Positions 6,199-33,720 of a stretch of DNA of 64,000 nt are shown here, one piece after another. The notes beneath the pieces are model-generated. The model ran no database searches. It had not been told where the DNA came from and saw only the letters and a program-made list of their open reading frames with translations. Position numbers and translations under genes: made by a program. This DNA is from Minisyncoccota bacterium. Lineage in GTDB: Bacteria; Patescibacteriota; Minisyncoccia; Phycocordibacterales; PALSA-1337. Within the stretch, counting starts at the first letter, position 1. Every line of letters starts with the position of its first letter. The stretch is from assembly GCA_041665325.1 (NCBI GenBank), contig JBAYJB010000001.1, positions 233,286-297,285 on the forward strand. The letters are read 5' to 3'.

Positions 6199-7233
6199 AT
6201 GAAATCTCCATTCAAGACAGATCTGAAGCGCCTAGTCATATTTACCATCATCCTGATCCTGGTGGCTGGAGTCACACAGGCGGCAAATATGTATCAGGTA
6301 AGCAACCTCGCCACTTCACAGATCAATGAGTGGGGCGTCTGCGGCAATATCAACAACCAGACCGGTAAGGCGCTTTTTGTACCCACTGGATCTTCTGCGG
6401 AGTGGCTAGCCTTCAGGAATCACCTACCTCCCAATGTGACAAATACGTCATGTGTGGTTTGCGACCCTGGTACGGGCAATGCATGCAACAGTTCGCCAAA
6501 CTCCTGCGGTCAGACCGGAGCCGGGACTATCCAGTGCGACGGCAGCTGTTCCGCCAGCGTACCGAGCGATCCGGCCGGATATGGCAACATGTGCAACAGT
6601 TCGCCAAACTCCTGCGGTCAGACCAACATCGGCTCGATCGATTGTAGCGGCAACTGTTCGGCTTCGACGCCTAGCGATCCGGCTGGATATGGCAATATGT
6701 GCAACAGTTCGCCAAACTCCTGCGGTCAGACCAACATCGGCTCGATCGATTGTAGCGGCAACTGTTCGGCAACAATACCACCTGACAGTTCTTGCCCACC
6801 AACTTTAACTTGTGTCGTTGGCACATCAGAACCAGCAAATGTTCTAGGCATACAATACTATCAAGGCCAAGGGACTCGCGTACAAGCCAACCAATCATCT
6901 GCCGACTTCGCTTGTCAACAGATGGGTTACATGAACGCTACAAGCTACACAACTCAAGGATGGTCAAGTTGCGGCGATAACTGGTACGCATACGCAAACG
7001 GTGGCACATGGGGGCATGTGAGTGGTTGCGACCCGAGTTCGGGTATCAATTATATCAATTGTTACGGAGAGGGTTCGGTGTGTCAAAATGTGTGCGGCAA
7101 TAACGTAGTCGATCCTGGAGAAAGCTGTGACGGCAACGATTCAGAGGATTACACTTATTGCGGCGACCCAACCTGGACTTGCAGTTCAAACTGTACCAAG
7201 AAATATGCCATCGTCGGAGGTGAATGCAACTAA
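6199..7233 (+). CDS. secreted cysteine-rich protein with three tandem ~36-aa repeats
   Basis: Signal peptide. Repeats CNSSPNSCGQT(G/N)xG(T/S)I(Q/D)C(D/S)G(S/N)CSAS(V/T)PSDPAGYGNM occur three times. There are more than 30 Cys overall and the C-terminal domain is also Cys-rich. Confidence 0.55.
   Translation: MKSPFKTDLKRLVIFTIILILVAGVTQAANMYQVSNLATSQINEWGVCGNINNQTGKALFVPTGSSAEWLAFRNHLPPNVTNTSCVVCDPGTGNACNSSPNSCGQTGAGTIQCDGSCSASVPSDPAGYGNMCNSSPNSCGQTNIGSIDCSGNCSASTPSDPAGYGNMCNSSPNSCGQTNIGSIDCSGNCSATIPPDSSCPPTLTCVVGTSEPANVLGIQYYQGQGTRVQANQSSADFACQQMGYMNATSYTTQGWSSCGDNWYAYANGGTWGHVSGCDPSSGINYINCYGEGSVCQNVCGNNVVDPGESCDGNDSEDYTYCGDPTWTCSSNCTKKYAIVGGECN
6484..6790 (+). repeat. tandem direct repeat, 108-bp unit, about 2.8 copies (in-frame within the Cys-rich CDS)
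   Basis: TGCAACAGTTCGCCAAACTCCTGCGGTCAGACC recurs at 6484, 6592 and 6700. Copies 2 and 3 are nearly identical over about 70 nt. Confidence 0.8.
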
Positions 7234-7289: not shown

Positions 7290-8027
7290 ATGCATCAACA
7301 AAACAAAGAATTTGTGTCCCAATTATTCACGCCGGTAGCGATCATCGTTGGCTCGATCATCATCGCCTGGGCCATAGCCTCCGGCCCTTCAGCCGGTTCG
7401 ATCAATCCGACCGCAGCTGTAGCCCTCGGCAATACCAACAACAACCCGGCACCGACCGTAGCCGTAGATTCGGCCAAAGTCAGCACGGCTGGCAACCCGG
7501 TGGTCGGCAATCCCAATGCCAAGCTCACGATCGCCTATTGGTTCGACTACCAGTGCCCCTTCTGCAAGAAGAGCGAACAGACGATCATATCAGTGCTGAT
7601 GAAGGACTATGTCGATACCGGCAAAGTCAGGATCGTCTTCAAGGATTTGCAATTCCTTGGTACCGACTCGACCAAACTCGGAACTATCGGCCGAGCCGTA
7701 TGGGAAGCTACCCCGGACAAATATTACGCTTGGCATAAGGCTATGTTCGAGAACCAAGGACAGGAAAACTCCGGCTGGGCCACTGACGCGTATGTGCTCT
7801 CGATATCGACAAGCGTGCTCGGTGCTTCCGACGCCGCCCGAGTCATGGATCTAGCCAAACAGAAGTCTGAAAGCTACAAGAAGCTCCTCGACGCTGACAA
7901 GGCCGAGGGCGCCGCTATCGGCGTAAGGAGCACTCCGAACATGGTCATCGGCAAGACCCTCGTGACCGGCGCTCAACCGTACGAGCAAGTCAAGACTGCC
8001 GTCGACAAGGCCTTGAACTCAAAATAG
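7290..8027 (+). CDS. DsbA-like thioredoxin-fold thiol:disulfide oxidoreductase
   Basis: N-terminal TM anchor and CPFC active-site motif (YWFDYQCPFCKK), typical DsbA/thioredoxin family. Confidence 0.75.
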   Translation: MHQQNKEFVSQLFTPVAIIVGSIIIAWAIASGPSAGSINPTAAVALGNTNNNPAPTVAVDSAKVSTAGNPVVGNPNAKLTIAYWFDYQCPFCKKSEQTIISVLMKDYVDTGKVRIVFKDLQFLGTDSTKLGTIGRAVWEATPDKYYAWHKAMFENQGQENSGWATDAYVLSISTSVLGASDAARVMDLAKQKSESYKKLLDADKAEGAAIGVRSTPNMVIGKTLVTGAQPYEQVKTAVDKALNSK

Positions 8028-8099
8028 AAGCAGTGACCTACCGGCCGGGGCCCTCCTCATAAGGGGATAGTAAGGTCTGATTCATTTTTCTATATTCTG

Positions 8100-8184
8100 T
8101 GCCGAGAGTGGGGGTCGAACCCACAGGAGCTTTTGGCTCACAACATTTTAAGTGTTGCGTGTTTACCAGTTTCACCATCTCGGC
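8100..8184 (-). tRNA. tRNA-Leu (anticodon TAA), type II with long variable arm
   Basis: Reverse complement folds as acceptor GCCGAGA/TCTCGGC, anticodon stem CAACA/TGTTG with loop CTTAAAA, variable arm TGAGCCAAAAGCTCC and T-arm GTGGGTTCGACCCCCAC. No intron is present. Confidence 0.8.
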
Positions 8185-8656
8185 ATTTCTTAATATTCCT
8201 ACCCCGATGGGTTGGGCGCAAGCTATGACAATTAGGGCATAATATCCTCAAATTTTCAAGTCTGTTATCATAGCGATTGCCATTGATATGATCGAGTTCG
8301 AGAGGTAGTCTCCCATCTGGCGACATGGTTGCCCAACCACAATATTCACAGCGCCTTGGTTTTAAGCCCTCCTTGAACAATCTCATCTTCAGCTTGTAAC
8401 TCTGAAAATCACTGTTTTCGACCAAGATTTTTTCAGTAGAAATAATTGGCTTACCGATACCCTTCAGACCCTTATTCCAGCAGCTCCCCGTAAAATGGGT
8501 GATATCTACATCAAATTCTTTCAGATATTTTCTCAGCTGAGCATAATTACCACCTGCTTCCCTTAGACCAAGAATACCTAACATCTGCCGCTTACTTTTT
8601 GAAGCAGCTGCGGCTCTTTTAAGACTACTGTCTGTCCATGTTCTTTTTCTCATCAA
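8138..8656 (-). CDS. HNH homing-endonuclease-like protein
   Basis: 172 aa with an HNH motif (CEYCGW...LELDHINGNRYDNRLENLRILCPNCHS). The last ~15 codons run into the 5' 47 nt of tRNA-Leu on the same strand. Confidence 0.7.
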   Translation of the reverse strand: MMRKRTWTDSSLKRAAAASKSKRQMLGILGLREAGGNYAQLRKYLKEFDVDITHFTGSCWNKGLKGIGKPIISTEKILVENSDFQSYKLKMRLFKEGLKPRRCEYCGWATMSPDGRLPLELDHINGNRYDNRLENLRILCPNCHSLRPTHRGRNIKKCRDGETGKHATLKML

Positions 8657-8695
8657 ACTAATTATACCTGCTCAGTCAGCTTTGTCACGACAAAG

Positions 8696-9304
8696 TTATT
8701 TCAAATCAATTGAACCTTTCAAAAAGGAGCGGCGATGTTCCGGCGTCAAACCGTGCTTCTTAATGGCCTTGTAATGGGCCGCGGTCCCATAACCCTTGTG
8801 GATCTCGAATCCATACCCGGGATACTCGTGCGCCATCTTTTTCATTCTCCGATCCCTTAAAACCTTTGCACAAATAGAAGCCAACGCAATGACCGGCTCC
8901 TTGGCATCGCCATCGATGATGGTAGTCTGATCTGAATACCTAGAAGAAGCGTAGAGTGAACCATCCAGAAGGATTTTTGAGTTCACACAATCAACACCGT
9001 CCTTTTCCAATCGTCTCAGGGCACGATTTAATGCTGAGTACACGGCATAAGAGAGACCCCTTGAATCAATAGTGGCCGGCCGTGAAAAAGAAGCGGCGTA
9101 ATGCACTTCCCCATTCTTGGAAAAAGCCCTGATCTTGCGGAACCACTCTTCACGCTGCTTTTCCGAAAGTTGTTTGGAGTCTTTCACTCCGCGGAACTTC
9201 TTGAGAACGGATTTTGAGGGCACAGCGAACACCCCAACAGCCACCGAACCGGCCAAAGGCCCACGGCCGGCCTCATCGATACCTATCAGATAGCGTCTAG
9301 CCAT
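8696..9304 (-). CDS. rnhB: ribonuclease HII
   Basis: 202 aa with the N-terminal RNase HII signature IGIDEAGRGPLAGSV. Confidence 0.85.
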   Translation of the reverse strand: MARRYLIGIDEAGRGPLAGSVAVGVFAVPSKSVLKKFRGVKDSKQLSEKQREEWFRKIRAFSKNGEVHYAASFSRPATIDSRGLSYAVYSALNRALRRLEKDGVDCVNSKILLDGSLYASSRYSDQTTIIDGDAKEPVIALASICAKVLRDRRMKKMAHEYPGYGFEIHKGYGTAAHYKAIKKHGLTPEHRRSFLKGSIDLK

Positions 9305-9348
9305 ATCGCTTGAATTCTAGCATTTTTTGCTATACTGATATCACCGCC

Positions 9349-12300
9349 ATGCCCTCCCGTTTCGTCCATCTCCATACCCACTCGCACTACTCCCTGCTAT
9401 CGGCCCTGCCCAAGATCGATGAGCTCGTCGAGGAAGCCGCCAAACTCAAGATGGACGCGCTGGCCCTCACCGACAACGGCAACCTATACGCTGCCATCGA
9501 ATTCTACAAAGCTTGCAAGAAGGCGGATGTGAAGCCGATCATCGGAGTAGACTTCTATGTGGCAGTGCGTGGCCGGAAGGATATGCAAGCGGGAGTGGAC
9601 AACCGGCGCGCTCGCCTGGTCCTCCTGGCCCAGAATGAGGCCGGCTACAAGAACCTTTTGAAGCTTGTGACCCAATCAAACCTCGAGGGATTTTATTACA
9701 AGCCGCGCATCGACCGTGAATTGCTCGATCAGCACCACGAAGGCCTCATCGCCATCGTCCCTTCTTTTTCCGGCGAGATCGCCCAGGCGCTCAAAGGACG
9801 CAATCAAGACAAGGCCCTAGAGATCACCGCGTTCTACAAGCGGACGTTCGGCAAGGACCTATACATGGAGATCACCCGGCACTCCGAGATCGACGGCCAC
9901 GAACAGAATATGAAGACGCTTGTCGATTTCGCTCGCACGCAGGGCATCCCACTCATGGCCGCACACGACGTCTATTACATCAAGCCGGAAGACCGCTTCG
10001 CCCGTGAGACGCTGGTACGCGTCAATTCGCATACTGACGCCTCCGACCGCATGTCGGACAGCGACGAGGACGATTTCTCATTCATTTCGGCAGAGCGGGC
10101 CGAGGATCTCTTCCGTGATCTGCCGGAGGCGCTCGAGAACACCCGGAAGATCGCCGACTCATGCAACCTCGAATTGAAACTCGGCACCTGGGTTTTCCCG
10201 AACTATGTGGTCAAGAACGGCAAATCCTACGATGAGGAGCTCAAACGCCTAGTGGAAGAAGGCTTCGTGACTCGGGGCATGAATAAGACCAAAGAGCTCG
10301 AGGAGCGCGCCAACTACGAGCTTTCGGTCATCAAGAATAAGGGCTACGCCCCGTACTTCTTGGTCGTGTCCGACCTCCTGCACCACGCCCACGATAGCGG
10401 CATCCTAACGACCACCAGGGGCTCGGCAGCCGGCTCTCTGGTGTCATATCTGACCGGTATCACCAATGTGGACCCCATCGCCTTCCTCCTGCCATTCGAG
10501 CGCTTCCTGAACCCTGACCGCCCATCTCCGCCAGATATCGACATGGACATCGCCGACAACCGCCGCGACGAGATGATCGCGTACGCCAGGACTAAATACG
10601 GCATCGATCATGTCGCCCAGATCGGTACCTTCGGCACGATGCTCGCGCGCGGCTCGGTACGAGACGTCGCGCGCGCCCTGGGATTCCCATTCGAGGCCGG
10701 TGACCGTATCGCCAAGCTCATCCCCCTAGGCGCCCAAGGCTTCCCTATGACGCTAGACCGCGCCATGGCCGAAGTACCGGAGCTCAAGGCCATGTACGAG
10801 CAGGAGGCCGAGCCGCGGCGCATCATCGACATGGCCAAGAAGATCGAGGGCTGTGCGCGACACATCAGTGTCCACGCCGCCGGCGTGGTCATCGCGCCCG
10901 GACCGCTCGTCCAATACACCGCGCTCCAGTATGACCCGAAGAGCGAGGGTGAGAGCGGGGGCAAGATTATCACCCAATACGACATGTACGCCATCGAGGA
11001 GGCCGGCCTGCTCAAGCTAGACTTCCTGGGCATCCGCAATCTGGCCATCCTCGCCGATGCCGTGGCGCGCGTCAAAAAGATCGAGGGCGTCGATGTCGAC
11101 ATCGAGAATGTGCCGCTCGACGACAAGAAGACCTTCGCGATGCTGGCCCTAGGCGAGACCATCGGCCTCTTCCAGCTCAACGGTTCCGGCATGACGCGCT
11201 TCCTGGTAGAGCTCAAGCCGACGGCTATCCACGACATCAACACCATGGTAGCCCTGTACCGCCCCGGACCGATGGACAACATCAACGAATACATCCAACG
11301 CAAGCACGGCAAGAAGCCTGTGACTTATATGCATCCGGCCATGAAGAAATTCCTCGAACCGACCTACGGAGTGCTGGTCTATCAGGACGACCTTCTCATG
11401 ACCGCCGTCGAGGTGGCTGGTTATAGCTGGTCGGAAGTAGACAAGTTCCGCAAGGCCGTGGGCAAGAAGATCCCCGAAGAGATGGCCAAACAGCACAAGA
11501 TCTTCGTGGCGGGTTGCATCAAGCATGGCGGTACGACCGAGAAGAAGGCCGAGCAGATCTGGAAGCTCTTCGAGCCATTCCAGGGCTACGGCTTCAACAA
11601 GGCTCACGCCGCAAGCTACGGCAAGGTGGCCTATCAGACGGCCTATATGAAGGCCAACTTCCCCGAGATCTATATGTCTGCGGTGCTCACGGCCGAATCA
11701 GGCGATATCGACACCATCGGCGTGATCGTCACCGAATGCCGCCGCATGGGCATCCCGGTCCTGCCACCGGACGTCAATGAGAGCTTCAGTCAATTCACGG
11801 TGGTGAAAGGTCAGGTTTCAGGCGGCGAAACAGGAGTCGAACATCATCGCATCCGCTTCGGGCTTGTGACCATCAAGAACTTCGGCCAGGGCGTCTCGAC
11901 GGCCATCATCGAGGAGCGCAAGAAGGCCGGGCCGTTCAAGTCGCTCGCTGATTTCCTGAAACGCGTCAAGGATCGCAATCTCAACAAGAAGTCACTTGAG
12001 GCCCTGATCAAGTCCGGCGCGCTGGATTGCTTCGGTGAGGACCGCGGCATCATGTTCGCCAACATGGACCGTCTGCTCGAATACAACAAGGAGAACGAGG
12101 GTCACGCGTCTTCTCATGATTCGCTGTTCGGGGGCATGGGTGAGGATGCCGGCGTAGCCACGCTCAAGCTATCTGATGCTCCCAAGGCCGAGATGCGCGA
12201 CAAACTGGCTTGGGAAAAGGAGCTCCTCGGCTTGTATGTTTCCGGCCATCCACTTGAGCGCTATCGCGAGACTATCGAAAAGAAGAAGATGGATATCATG

Positions 12301-16814: not shown

Positions 16815-16913
16815 CGGAAAAAGTGTAGCAGAAATAAGGAAATGCCGCAAAAGCCTTGTGGATAGAGCAAGAGCGTTCTTGATTGTTAGTACACTATCCG
16901 TTAATATTAAGGG

Positions 16914-17567
16914 GTGCCCAGAAAATATGTTACCCAAGAAGAGATAAGGACGATGGTATCCCTGAGGAGAGGTGGTCATAGTTTGCCGGAGATAATGAGG
17001 GCTACACAAAGAGGTAGCTCAACAGTTTTTGCTCACGTAAAGAATGTGCAGGTGCTCCAAGCTAATATACAGAGCCTGAAGTTGAAACAGGGTGGGAGCA
17101 GGGAAAGATCGCAAAAGGCATGGGCCGAGGCCAGCACGAGAGCTAAAGAAATTTTGGGGACTTCCCTATCGGAAGATCAGCGACTTTTTTTGCTTTTAGG
17201 GATTTACTGGGGTGAAGGAAACAAGAAAGAACTAAACCTCATTAATTCCGACCCAGGACTTATCAAAACATTCATTTCCTGCTTAAAAGATATCGGCGTA
17301 GAAAACGATGAACTCAAGATCAGTTTGAGGATATACGAGGACATAGATCGGAGGAAATCTATCAGATTTTGGTCTGATTTTCTGTCTATAGATCAGGGCC
17401 GTATAACTAGTGTAGAAGTCCTAAGAGGTAGGAAATCCGGAAAACTAGAGCATGGGATGTGTCGAGTCAGGGTTGCAAAAAGCGCCACTTACTTTAAACT
17501 GCTAACAAGCCTCATCCGAGAGGTGAAGAAACACTTCGACGCCCTCGTAGTTCAACGGATAGAATAG
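16914..17567 (+). CDS. putative LAGLIDADG-type homing endonuclease with N-terminal HTH domain
   Basis: 217 aa with an N-terminal helix-turn-helix-like segment. FLLLGIYWGEGNKKE matches the LAGLIDADG pattern (compare I-CreI LAGFVDGDG). The last 9 codons overlap the 5' end of tRNA-Arg. Assignment is by motif only. Confidence 0.4.
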   Translation: MPRKYVTQEEIRTMVSLRRGGHSLPEIMRATQRGSSTVFAHVKNVQVLQANIQSLKLKQGGSRERSQKAWAEASTRAKEILGTSLSEDQRLFLLLGIYWGEGNKKELNLINSDPGLIKTFISCLKDIGVENDELKISLRIYEDIDRRKSIRFWSDFLSIDQGRITSVEVLRGRKSGKLEHGMCRVRVAKSATYFKLLTSLIREVKKHFDALVVQRIE

Positions 17568-17612
17568 CTCACTCCTAACGAGCTGATCCAAGTTCGATTC
17601 TTGGCGGGGGCA
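17541..17612 (+). tRNA. tRNA-Arg (anticodon CCT)
   Basis: Hand-folded: acceptor GCCCTCG/CGGGGGC (one G-U pair), D-arm GTTC-AACGGATA-GAAT, anticodon stem GCTCA/CGAGC with loop CTCCTAA, 4-nt variable loop, T-arm CCAAGTTCGATTCTTGG. CCA is not encoded. Confidence 0.65.
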
Positions 17613-17652
17613 CATACGGAAGCCGAGATCGGCGATATGATATAATTTTTGC

Positions 17653-33299: not shown

Positions 33300-33377
33300 G
33301 CCCCTTATTATATCAAGTCATCTTTCATCCGCCAACTTATACAAAGAACAAGCGCCCCGTTAAGGAGCGCTTATTCA

Positions 33378-33720
33378 TGTGCGTCGCACATAAGCCGAAT
33401 TCTGTCGAGGACAACCATATATCTTGGATGCATGTTGCCATGCACCTCTAGCGGTTCTTCCCTCTGCCTTGCGGCATGGGACGCGACCTTGCACCGAGGT
33501 AAGGATTTGGCCGTTGCACCTCCCAAGTTTCCATGGGAGCTAATCCCGAAGGATCCGCGTGCCGTTTCCAGCCCGCGCGTCTCTGTTCGCACCTCTAGGA
33601 TCACCCTGACGGGCATTACCCGCTACCCTGCTATCTGGCCTTGCGGCCAGCCGGTGTTCGGACTTTCCTCACGCGAGACGCTCCTTGCGAAGGCCCGCGC
33701 GCGATTGCCTATGCGACTGA
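33378..33720 (-). ncRNA. rnpB: RNase P RNA (bacterial, reduced type A-like)
   Basis: On the minus strand the P4 5' strand GAGGAAAGUCCGAACACC is the complement of plus 33653-33670. The P4 3' strand ACAGAAUUCGGCUUAUG is the complement of 33389-33405, with perfect complementarity between them. P1 termini pair (GUCGCAUAGG with CUUAUGUGCGAC). Length is about 340 nt. Not in the ORF track. Confidence 0.7.

What the first reader, a model, noticed from the sequence alone, without database searches (positions are those of the whole stretch)
8100..8656. HNH homing-endonuclease gene running into the 5' half of an intact tRNA-Leu(TAA)
A free-standing HNH endonuclease ORF ends 47 nt inside tRNA-Leu(UAA) on the same strand. 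tRNA-Leu(UAA) is the classic host of bacterial group I introns, but here the anticodon loop is uninterrupted. The endonuclease therefore sits immediately upstream of the tRNA rather than inside an intron. Together with the second case at 16.9-17.6 kb, this suggests homing endonucleases that use tRNA-proximal intergenic DNA as a landing site, as phage T4 seg genes do in its tRNA cluster. It may also be an intron-loss remnant.
Basis: seen in the sequence. Interest (0 to 1): 0.55.

Follow-up and report, generated by a model that had tools for sequence, protein, structure and literature searches.

The report
Homing-endonuclease gene glued to tRNA-Leu
A small HNH nuclease gene sits directly upstream of an intact tRNA-Leu(UAA) gene and reads 47 bases into it; the same gene–tRNA pair recurs in many ultra-small (CPR/Patescibacteria) bacteria and looks like the selfish homing-endonuclease genes found in phage tRNA clusters, so it is a new example of a known kind, not a new mechanism.

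Summary
An HNH ORF (8653→8138, minus strand) ends 47 nt inside an intact, intron-free tRNA-Leu(UAA) (8184→8099).

The ORF belongs to a very large CPR/Patescibacteria family.
- In 103 of 104 full-length copies examined, tRNA-Leu(UAA) follows on the same strand. The median gap from the conserved core to the tRNA is 14 nt.
- The stop codon lies inside the tRNA in 61 of 103 copies, in all three reading frames. The overlap is therefore a by-product of very tight juxtaposition. The tRNA-encoded tail is predicted to be disordered.

An unbiased sample of tRNA-Leu(UAA) loci shows the pattern expected of a homing endonuclease.
- 26 of 68 loci are occupied, four of them by decayed copies (a fifth, L084, is intact but detached from the tRNA).
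- 23 are clean empty sites with an upstream same-strand tRNA 2–132 nt from tRNA-Leu (21 of them tRNA-Cys).
- Three carry LAGLIDADG ORFs or remnants in the same slot.

A strong promoter-like site ends 7 nt before the ATG, and there is no room for another promoter before the tRNA. The tRNA is therefore probably made as the 3' end of the HNH transcript. RNase P cleavage would then remove the stop codon.

The closest precedents are T4 SegB and HNH genes that fill inter-tRNA spacers in actinophages. The second case (16914–17567 into tRNA-Arg(CCU)) behaves the same way. Nuclease activity, target site and mobility were not demonstrated.

The parts
8661..8688 (-). Promoter-like site GTGACA-16 nt-TATAAT. 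The -10 hexamer ends 7 nt before ATG 8653, which suggests a leaderless or near-leaderless HNH mRNA.
   Evidence: It is the best site in 7900-9400, matching 11 of 12 positions. In 46 of 95 family loci a hexamer matching TATAAT at 5 or more of 6 positions ends 6-7 nt before the start codon.
8138..8653 (-). HNH endonuclease gene, 171 aa; an alternative TTG start lies at 8656. It is a free-standing homing-endonuclease candidate.
   Evidence: Pfam HNH_3 and HNH pass their cut-offs. PHROG 10822 'HNH endonuclease' matches full length at E 5.7e-42, and PADLOC 'HEase' at 1.6e-24. At least 7983 homologues are found. G+C is 42% against 50-58% in the flanks.
8516..8632 (-). N-terminal three-helix domain (residues 8-46), presumed to bind DNA.
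   Evidence: The AlphaFold2 model has helices at 8-17, 21-28 and 34-46 with pLDDT 86-93. Conserved residues include W6, L11, S20, G34, N36, Y37, Q39 and Y43. DNA binding is an inference.
8204..8362 (-). HNH (beta-beta-alpha-metal) catalytic domain with a four-Cys zinc site (residues about 98-150).
   Evidence: C102, C105, C139, C142, H122, N134 and H143 are invariant. Pfam matches cover residues 103-145. Foldseek gives weak matches to McrA, Cap5 and PacI HNH domains.
8138..8184 (-). The 47-nt overlap: the last 15 codons and the stop of the ORF are the 5' half of the tRNA gene.
   Evidence: Read directly from the sequence. The tail has pLDDT below 50. Homologues enter the tRNA in all three frames.
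8099..8184 (-). Intact tRNA-Leu(UAA) without an intron. It has no promoter of its own between itself and the HNH gene.
   Evidence: ARAGORN; Rfam 58.9 bits; no promoter-like or terminator-like site between the ORF and the tRNA.
16914..17567 (+). Second case: a 217-aa protein with an N-terminal helix-turn-helix domain and a probable single LAGLIDADG domain. It ends 27 nt inside tRNA-Arg(CCU).
17541..17613 (+). tRNA-Arg(CCU), the partner of the second endonuclease-like ORF.
   Evidence: ARAGORN; Rfam 58.2 bits.
33376..33720 (-). RNase P RNA gene. This ribozyme would release the tRNA 5' ends from the endonuclease-tRNA co-transcripts (context only).
   Evidence: Rfam RNaseP_bact_a, 102.1 bits. Its role here is an inference.

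Best explanation
The ORF is a free-standing HNH homing-endonuclease gene. It belongs to a CPR-wide family whose fixed home is the few nucleotides immediately 5' of the tRNA-Leu(UAA) gene.

Expression (inferred from sequence):
- Transcription starts from the promoter-like site at 8688..8661, about at the ATG.
- It runs through the ORF into the tRNA, so tRNA-Leu is the 3' part of the HNH transcript.
- RNase P releases the tRNA. That cut removes the last 15 codons and the stop codon of the mRNA.
- Full-length protein can then come only from unprocessed transcripts. This probably keeps nuclease levels low, as was proposed for T4 SegB.

The 47-nt run-in itself has no function. It exists because the conserved protein core ends only about 10 nt before the tRNA, and the first in-frame stop happens to lie inside it.

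Spread (inferred by analogy):
- The nuclease cuts endonuclease-free tRNA-Leu loci in or near the conserved tRNA gene.
- Repair copies the cassette.
- The conserved tRNA genes (tRNA-Leu, and usually tRNA-Cys upstream) supply the homology.
For: - Identity: HNH by Pfam. Full-length match to a phage HNH endonuclease family and to PADLOC's homing-endonuclease model.
- Linkage: 79 of the 80 best genomic loci, and 103 of 104 full-length copies overall, are followed by tRNA-Leu(taa) on the same strand. The median gap from conserved residue 153 to the tRNA is 14 nt.
- Overlap is incidental: the stop lies inside the tRNA in 61 of 103 copies, in three frame classes, and the tail is disordered.
- Homing-endonuclease life cycle: in tRNA-anchored sampling, 26 of 68 loci are occupied. 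Four of these copies are decayed (L092, L097, L139, L141) and a fifth (L084) is intact but 120 nt from the tRNA. 23 loci are empty sites with an upstream same-strand tRNA 2-132 nt from tRNA-Leu (21 tRNA-Cys). LAGLIDADG ORFs or remnants occupy the same slot in L114, L123 and L156.
- Occupied and empty tRNAs share the same 5' sequences.
- A relative with 77% identical RNase HII has tRNA-Leu(UAA) near rnhB without the gene.
- Expression: an 11/12 promoter-like site lies 7 nt from the ATG, and no promoter or terminator precedes the tRNA. The -10-to-start spacing is conserved in 46 of 95 loci. RNase P RNA is present in the window.
- Precedents: SegB (PMC2330249). Homologous HNH genes exactly fill inter-tRNA spacers in phages GodonK and Dorin.
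Against: - No cleavage, target site or gene-conversion event is shown.
- No pair of near-identical flanks with and without the gene was found, so exact insertion boundaries are not defined.
- The protein is unusually conserved for a selfish gene. Mean identity is 66%, against 35% for the adjacent RbfA. It is almost flat with host divergence, and no very similar copies occur in distant hosts.
- It is under purifying selection between two strains: 9 nonsynonymous against 17 synonymous codon differences.
- How occupied alleles avoid self-cleavage is unknown, because their tRNA sequence does not differ from that of empty alleles.
- Transcription start, co-transcription and RNase P truncation are sequence inferences.
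Confidence: 0.72

Rival explanations
1. Domesticated host gene. The HNH protein is an old, vertically inherited CPR protein with a cellular role, for example linked to tRNA-Leu expression or to DNA uptake and repair. It happens to share an operon with tRNA-Leu(UAA) and is lost in some lineages.
For: - It is strongly conserved: 66% mean identity against 35% for neighbouring RbfA, with many invariant residues in both domains.
- It is under purifying selection and retained in a sister strain.
- There is a weak positive correlation with host divergence, and no recent cross-lineage copies were seen.
Against: - Most sampled tRNA-Leu(UAA) loci lack it, including lineages with identical tRNA 5' sequences.
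- Decayed copies exist.
- Unrelated LAGLIDADG endonucleases occupy the same slot.
- Full-length homologues are phage HNH genes wedged between tRNAs.
- An unrelated endonuclease-like family shows the same behaviour at tRNA-Arg(CCU).
Confidence: 0.14
2. Intron-loss remnant. The gene descends from an HNH ORF of a group I intron in the tRNA-Leu(UAA) anticodon loop. The ribozyme was lost, and an intact tRNA copy replaced the 3' exon.
For: - The endonuclease-type/tRNA pairings match those reported for intron-encoded endonucleases elsewhere: HNH in tRNA-Leu(UAA) introns of Bacteroidota, and LAGLIDADG in tRNA-Arg(CCU) introns of Cyanobacteria (PMC13011429).
- A few relatives carry a 5' third of the cognate tRNA upstream of the cassette: L021, L047 and L048 for HNH, and L214 for the second family.
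Against: - There is no group I intron signal at gathering score or at E<=1.
- The cassette has no room for a ribozyme: about 60-90 nt plus the ORF.
- tRNA-Leu(UAA) is called intact in all 79 of the 80 genome loci where it follows the gene.
- The upstream tRNA fragments stop near position 25-30, not at 34/35 or 36/37.
- The window itself has no such fragment.
- Phage homologues sit between tRNAs without introns.
Confidence: 0.08
3. Chance or annotation artefact. An ordinary small gene happens to end inside a tRNA because of a missing stop codon or an assembly error.
For: The overlap length is set only by where the first in-frame stop falls.
Against: The arrangement recurs in 103 of 104 independent loci from many assemblies. 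It is identical in a second strain at about 95% nucleotide identity.
Confidence: 0.02

Closest known systems
Phage T4 SegB, a free-standing homing endonuclease in the T4 tRNA gene cluster (PMC2330249)
   Same: - It is a free-standing endonuclease gene embedded among tRNA genes and transcribed as part of a tRNA precursor.
- Its ORF end abuts the next tRNA, so tRNA 5' maturation cuts between the last sense codon and the stop codon. This was proposed to limit expression.
- It targets a conserved tRNA-gene motif.
- Relatives lack the gene.
   Different: - SegB is a GIY-YIG enzyme in a phage. This one is an HNH enzyme in bacterial chromosomes.
- Here the gene is tied to one specific tRNA across a whole superphylum.
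- Here it appears to have its own promoter, which also serves the tRNA.
- SegB's activity and homing were shown experimentally; here they are inferred.
HNH endonuclease genes that fill inter-tRNA spacers in actinophages (Gordonia phage GodonK gene 149; Rhodococcus phage Dorin gene 94), and the phage T5 F-TflI/II genes in the tRNA region
   Same: - The proteins are homologous (43-48% identity over 69-80% of the query; PHROG 10822 matches full length).
- The geometry is the same. In Dorin, tRNA, HNH and tRNA follow each other with 0-nt gaps. In GodonK the CDS overlaps tRNA-Glu by 10 nt.
- The T5 enzymes are cited as lying in the tRNA cluster.
   Different: - These are in phage genomes, with different flanking tRNAs.
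- They are annotated but, in the library searched, not analysed as a class.
- There is no evidence there for fidelity to a single tRNA.
Homing endonucleases encoded in group I introns of tRNA genes (tRNA-Leu(UAA), tRNA-Arg(CCU), and tRNA-Asn in Patescibacteria; PMC13011429)
   Same: The host tRNAs and endonuclease classes are the same. The logic is also the same: living at a conserved, essential tRNA gene without inactivating it.
   Different: There is no intron and no ribozyme. Harmlessness comes from sitting in the 5' leader or spacer that RNase P removes, not from self-splicing.
I-TevI autorepression, and hairpin occlusion of translation starts in T4 endonuclease genes
   Same: In many relatives, though not in the window, an inverted repeat overlaps the endonuclease promoter or start codon. 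This resembles the operator or hairpin control described for T4 endonuclease genes (the I-TevI operator is recalled from my own knowledge).
   Different: Function was not tested. Base pairing is only moderately conserved. The repeat does not covary with the resident tRNA.

Membership tests
HNH (His-Me finger) endonucleases | A beta-beta-alpha-metal motif with the catalytic His, an Asn and a second His | tested here: met
   Pfam HNH_3 scores 27.2 bits (cut-off 24.8) and HNH 25.4 bits (cut-off 21.4). H122, N134 and H143 are invariant in 34 sequences. The model has strands 119-122 and 135-138 and helix 140-144.
HNH (His-Me finger) endonucleases | A structural zinc site made of two CxxC pairs (McrA-like subgroup) | tested here: met
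   C102, C105, C139 and C142 are invariant. The weak structural matches are to McrA-type HNH domains.
Free-standing homing-endonuclease genes | Presence/absence polymorphism at one fixed genomic site | tested here: met
   26 of 68 tRNA-anchored loci are occupied. 23 are empty sites with an upstream same-strand tRNA 2-132 nt from tRNA-Leu, 21 of them tRNA-Cys.
Free-standing homing-endonuclease genes | Decaying copies, as expected from an invasion-degeneration-loss cycle | tested here: met
   L097 keeps only residues 107-156. L092 and L139 are at 40-44% identity and shortened. L141 is split.
Free-standing homing-endonuclease genes | Horizontal spread, seen as a phylogeny incongruent with the host | tested here: inconclusive
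   HNH identity is flat at 64-68% while adjacent RbfA ranges from 20% to 60%. Spearman correlation is 0.41. No near-identical copies occur in distant hosts.
Free-standing homing-endonuclease genes | Site-specific cleavage of the endonuclease-free allele, followed by gene conversion | not testable with these tools
   This needs protein expression and cleavage or co-transformation assays.
Group I intron-encoded tRNA endonucleases | The ORF lies within a group I intron that interrupts the anticodon loop | tested here: not met
   The tRNA is intact. No Intron_gpI match is found at gathering score in the window or at E<=1 in 7900-8800.
T4 Seg (GIY-YIG) family | A GIY-YIG catalytic domain | tested here: not met
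   Only HNH families match. It resembles SegB in architecture, not in ancestry.
LAGLIDADG homing endonucleases (second case, 16914-17567) | The LAGLIDADG alpha-beta-beta-alpha-beta-beta-alpha fold with an acidic residue ending the motif helix | tested here: inconclusive
   - The motif LLLGIYWGEG is present, with invariant E101 and G102.
- Pfam LAGLIDADG_3 matches only 2 of 40 members, at E 0.02.
- Foldseek finds no LAGLIDADG structure.

The most novel reading that the evidence does not exclude
These cassettes may be an intron-free way of living at an essential tRNA gene. Under this reading:
- The endonuclease gene takes over the tRNA's 5' leader and supplies its promoter.
- It relies on RNase P to restore the tRNA, and incidentally to cut off its own stop codon.
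- It carries, upstream of itself, copies of the cognate tRNA's 5'/D-arm sequence. These would act as a portable left homology arm, or as an operator that mimics the target.

The cassette could then home into that tRNA gene in any genomic context. Two unrelated endonuclease families (HNH at tRNA-Leu(UAA), LAGLIDADG-like at tRNA-Arg(CCU)) would have converged on this design.
Probability: 0.15. Interest if true: 0.7.

Novelty: new member of a known kind. Interest (0 to 1): 0.42.

Why it matters
- It shows that the phage-style habit of parking homing-endonuclease genes in tRNA clusters is widespread in the chromosomes of CPR/Patescibacteria. At least 592 species-representative genomes carry the gene, and it occupied about 38% of the tRNA-Leu(UAA) loci sampled.
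- It explains a recurrent annotation oddity: CDSs that overlap tRNA genes, with 'conserved' C-terminal tails that are really translated tRNA.
- It provides two compact nuclease families that are likely to recognise conserved tRNA-gene sequences.
- It gives a natural system for asking how selfish genes persist in tiny, reduced genomes, and how mRNA translation and tRNA processing compete on one transcript.

Tried and rejected
1. Group I intron or other structured RNA around the ORF. Rfam at gathering score and at E<=1 finds only the tRNA.
2. Function for the tRNA-encoded tail. Rejected because three reading frames are used and the tail is disordered.
3. Exact insertion boundaries from near-identical occupied/empty pairs. 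None were found; the best flank identity is about 70-77%.
4. Orthologous empty site next to rnhB. Relatives at 73-80% RNase HII identity have rearranged neighbourhoods. Only L203/L204 keep tRNA-Leu nearby, inverted and without HNH.
5. Immunity polymorphisms in the tRNA 5' part. There is no systematic difference between occupied and empty loci.
6. The inverted repeat as an RNA hairpin with covariation. Pairing is only moderate: 35 G-U, 16 A-C and 49 other mismatches at five variable positions. The mean folding z-score is -1.0.
7. The repeat tracking the resident tRNA D-loop. Not supported (P about 0.35-0.40).
8. Whole-protein structural relatives of the HNH protein in the PDB. Only weak HNH-domain hits were found.
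9. Defence-system membership. Only the HNH motif matches ZorE and IscB models, far below their cut-offs.
10. Literature. No paper in the searched library describes this CPR arrangement.

Full report
**Observation.**
ARAGORN finds six tRNAs in the window, including tRNA-Leu(taa) at 8099..8184 on the minus strand. Rfam's tRNA model agrees, at 58.9 bits against a threshold of 29. The minus-strand ORF 8138..8656 (172 aa from TTG; 171 aa from ATG 8653, as in the NCBI protein P0001) passes the Pfam gathering scores for HNH_3 and HNH. Its stop codon (8140..8138) lies 47 nt inside the tRNA, so residues 157-171 (CRDGETGKHATLKML) are translated tRNA sequence. The anticodon loop is uninterrupted. No group I intron or any other RNA family is detected at gathering score in the window, or at E<=1 in 7900-8800. 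The second case is also real: ORF 16914..17567 (+) ends 27 nt inside tRNA-Arg(cct) 17541..17613.

**What the protein is.**
The AlphaFold2 model (mean pLDDT 80) has three parts:
- an N-terminal three-helix domain (residues 8-46);
- a C-terminal HNH domain (about residues 98-150);
- a tRNA-encoded tail (154-171) with pLDDT below 50.

The four cysteines of a zinc site and the H/N/H residues are invariant in an alignment of 34 homologues. The whole protein, both domains included, matches PHROG 10822 'HNH endonuclease' at E 5.7e-42, and PADLOC's homing-endonuclease model at 1.6e-24. Matches to ZorE and IscB cover the HNH motif only and fall far below their cut-offs. PDB searches give only weak HNH-domain hits.

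**The junction with tRNA-Leu(UAA) is a property of the family.**
- The protein search returned at least 7983 homologues at 60-72% identity, named from many CPR/Patescibacteria groups.
- About half of the top 120 end in ...R[DG]GE[TI]G[RK]HATLKM[LS], which is the translated 5' half of tRNA-Leu(UAA). Others end in tails that are the same tRNA read in other frames, for example ...ARVAERYTRNT, where the anticodon TAA serves as the stop.
In 79 of the best 80, tRNA-Leu(taa) starts within -101 to +20 nt of the HNH stop on the same strand.
- Over both data sets, 103 of 104 full-length copies are followed by tRNA-Leu(taa). The median distance from conserved residue 153 to the tRNA is 14 nt (interquartile range 10.5-19). 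The stop lies inside the tRNA in 61 of 103 copies, and the window's 47-nt class occurs 15 times.

The run-in is therefore a by-product of very tight juxtaposition. The conserved core ends just before the tRNA, and translation stops at whichever in-frame stop comes first.

**Presence, absence and decay.**
To sample without reference to the HNH gene, I scanned metagenome contigs for a tRNA-Leu(UAA) anticodon-arm pattern. Of 68 loci with at least 650 nt of upstream sequence:
- 26 have an HNH match next to the tRNA; four of these copies are decayed (L092, L097, L139, L141), and in a fifth, L084, an intact copy ends 120 nt before the tRNA;
- 23 are clean empty sites in which an upstream tRNA on the same strand ends only 2-132 nt before tRNA-Leu (21 tRNA-Cys(gca), one tRNA-Arg(tct), one tRNA-Leu(tag));
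- three carry LAGLIDADG ORFs or remnants in the same slot (L114, L123, L156), and L096 has one just upstream of tRNA-Cys.

The usual occupied arrangement is tRNA-Cys, then about 55-90 nt, then HNH, then tRNA-Leu(UAA), often followed by tRNA-Lys and tRNA-Leu(UAG). Occupied and empty loci share the same tRNA 5' sequences and acceptor-stem types. This patchy pattern is what a homing-endonuclease gene is expected to show.

**Relatives of this genome.**
- A strain at about 95% nucleotide identity (L201) has the same rnhB-HNH-tRNA-Leu-dsbA order. Its HNH gene differs by 17 synonymous and 9 nonsynonymous codons. For comparison, rnhB differs by 13 and 2, and dnaE by 87 and 26. The gene is therefore intact and under purifying selection.
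- Genomes with 73-80% identical RNase HII keep dnaE-rnhB but differ downstream.
- In L203/L204, tRNA-Leu(UAA) lies near rnhB on the other strand with no HNH gene.
- No near-identical occupied/empty pair was found, so exact insertion boundaries remain undefined.

**How it is probably expressed (inferred from sequence).**
- The best promoter-like site in 7900-9400 is GTGACA-16-TATAAT at 8688..8661, matching 11 of 12 positions. Its -10 hexamer ends 7 nt before the ATG.
- Across the family, a hexamer matching TATAAT at 5 or more of 6 positions ends exactly 6 or 7 nt before the start codon in 46 of 95 loci. This suggests leaderless mRNAs.
- No promoter-like or terminator-like site lies between the ORF and the tRNA, and there is no room for one. 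tRNA-Leu(UAA) is therefore most likely the 3' part of the HNH transcript, or of read-through from rnhB.
- RNase P, whose RNA gene is at 33376..33720, would cut at the tRNA 5' end and remove the last 15 codons and the stop codon. Only unprocessed transcripts could then be translated to a normal stop.

The same relationship was described for T4 segB. There, maturation of tRNA-Arg cuts between the last sense codon and the stop codon, and this was proposed to limit expression (PMC2330249).

**Selfish or domesticated?**
In 24 loci that also carry the adjacent rbfA gene, HNH proteins average 66% identity while RbfA averages 35%. HNH identity stays at 64-68% over RbfA identities of 20-60% (Spearman 0.41), and no very similar copies were seen in distant hosts. 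This high, flat conservation is unusual for a selfish gene. Two readings fit it:
- continuing selection for recognition of an invariant tRNA target, with homing mostly within populations;
- a host function.

Five observations favour the selfish reading:
- the patchy distribution;
- the decayed copies;
- competing endonuclease families in the same slot;
- phage homologues in the same arrangement;
- an unrelated family behaving the same way at tRNA-Arg(CCU).

I put the selfish reading at about 0.7 and domestication at about 0.15.

**Upstream element in relatives (absent from the window).**
- Between tRNA-Cys and the HNH start, many loci carry an imperfect inverted repeat, ATGGTA[GAT]AC...GT[CTA]T[AGT]CCAT. 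It has a constant span of about 38 nt (39 of 95 loci by a strict pattern).
- The motif is 13-fold enriched in the 90 nt upstream of the gene compared with the rest of the loci.
- The motif equals the D-loop/D-stem of tRNA-Leu.
- In one class the repeat arms flank the -35 hexamer. In another class the 3' arm abuts or includes the ATG, as in L010 at -18.4 kcal/mol.
- L021, L047 and L048 carry a whole 5' third of a tRNA-Leu that differs from the resident tRNA.
- Pairing is only moderately kept, and the motif does not covary with the resident tRNA.

I cannot distinguish between three readings: an RNA hairpin that blocks translation of read-through transcripts (as proposed for segB), a protein operator that mimics the target, or a relic of insertion. 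The window's own upstream region shows no significant structure (z = +0.4).

**Second case.**
- The 217-aa ORF has 150 CPR homologues. Their tails (NAAVVQRIEQGTPKP, SPRSSMDRTAAS and others) are translated tRNA-Arg(CCU).
- In all 7 loci examined, tRNA-Arg(cct) follows. The stop lies inside the tRNA in 5 of them.
- The model (pLDDT 90) has an N-terminal helix-turn-helix domain. HTH families match in 14-18 of 40 members.
- In the window, GGATAGAG (16860-16867) and CTATCC (16894-16899) flank a weak -35-like TTGATT. Both equal the D-loop of tRNA-Arg.
- L213 shows the matching variant of its own tRNA, and L214 carries a 25-nt 5' third of tRNA-Arg upstream. The parallel with the HNH cassettes is notable, but it rests on few loci.

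**Comparison with what is known.**
- The architecture matches free-standing endonuclease genes in phage tRNA clusters. T4 SegB is a GIY-YIG enzyme that recognises the T-psi-C motif of tRNA genes. The T5 F-Tfl enzymes are also cited as lying in a tRNA cluster.
- Homologous HNH genes exactly fill inter-tRNA spacers in Rhodococcus phage Dorin (0-nt gaps on both sides), and Gordonia phage GodonK has a 10-nt overlap with tRNA-Glu.
- The recent survey of tRNA introns in Patescibacteria (PMC13011429) reports HNH ORFs in tRNA-Leu(UAA) introns of Bacteroidota and LAGLIDADG ORFs in tRNA-Arg(CCU) introns of Cyanobacteria. In the passages that mention endonucleases, HNH, LAGLIDADG, tRNA-Leu or 'upstream', it does not describe intron-less upstream endonuclease genes.
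- No paper found in the library describes the CPR arrangement.

I therefore class this as a new member of a known kind. It is notable for its scale, its fidelity to one tRNA, and its occurrence in cellular genomes.

**Limits.**
- All mechanistic steps (transcription start, co-transcription, RNase P truncation, cleavage target, homing) are inferred from sequence.
- The 80 genomic loci were the copies most similar to the query.
- The tRNA-anchored sample covers only tRNAs that match one anticodon-arm pattern.
- More distant family members were not examined for context.

Noticed in passing
L001-L160, the 90 nt upstream of the HNH start (e.g. L013, L043, L067, L079, L080); absent from window 8654-8720: A conserved imperfect inverted repeat, ATGGTAnAC...GTnTnCCAT, spans about 38 nt and overlaps the HNH promoter or start codon. 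The motif equals the tRNA-Leu D-loop/stem and is 13-fold enriched there. It is absent from the empty sites whose spacers were read.
   Followed up: partly
L021, L047, L048 (upstream of HNH); L214 positions about 1133-1157 (upstream of the second-family ORF): A recognisable 5' third (acceptor strand plus D-arm) of the cognate tRNA lies upstream of the endonuclease gene. It forms a direct repeat with the intact tRNA downstream and differs in sequence from the resident tRNA. It ends near tRNA position 25-30.
   Followed up: partly
window 16860-16907: GGATAGAG (16860-16867) and its complement CTATCC (16894-16899) flank a -35-like TTGATT (16879-16884). They lie upstream of a -10-like TAATAT (16902-16907) that ends 6 nt before GTG 16914. 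The repeat equals the D-loop of the downstream tRNA-Arg(CCU). L213 carries the variant that matches its own tRNA.
   Followed up: partly
L114, L123, L156 (between tRNA-Cys and tRNA-Leu); L096 (upstream of tRNA-Cys): Canonical two-motif LAGLIDADG ORFs (222-243 aa), or a remnant of one, occupy the same tRNA-upstream slots in HNH-free loci and end about 10 nt before the tRNA.
   Followed up: no
L209 (Gordonia phage GodonK, 1287-1874); L216 (Rhodococcus phage Dorin, 1067-1656): Homologous phage HNH genes exactly fill the spacer between two tRNA genes. Dorin has 0-nt gaps on both sides. In GodonK the CDS overlaps tRNA-Glu by 10 nt.
   Followed up: partly
L009, L031, L033, L048, L079: between the called tRNA-Cys and the HNH cassette: Extra sequence ending in a T-arm plus acceptor 3' strand (...GGCCTCA) follows the called tRNA. 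This could be a duplicated 3' half or an interrupted tRNA that ARAGORN split.
   Followed up: no
L072: This is the only exception among the 80 genomic loci. The HNH ORF is longer and is followed by tRNA-Lys(ctt), with no tRNA-Leu(taa) called. The tRNA-Leu may have been deleted or missed.
   Followed up: no
window 33376-33720 (-): A bacterial type A RNase P RNA gene (102 bits, just above the gathering score of 100).
   Followed up: no
window 6199-7233 (+): A 344-aa Cys-rich secreted-looking protein contains near-identical tandem repeats (...NSSPNSCGQT[GN][AI]G[TS]I[QD]C[DS]G[SN]CSA...). Next to it lies a Peptidase_S74-containing gene in the sister strain's annotation.
   Followed up: no
window 8138-8653 compared with its flanks: G+C drops to about 42% over the HNH gene, against 50-58% in neighbouring genes. 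A similar dip (39-47%) covers the second endonuclease-like ORF at 16.9-17.6 kb.
   Followed up: no
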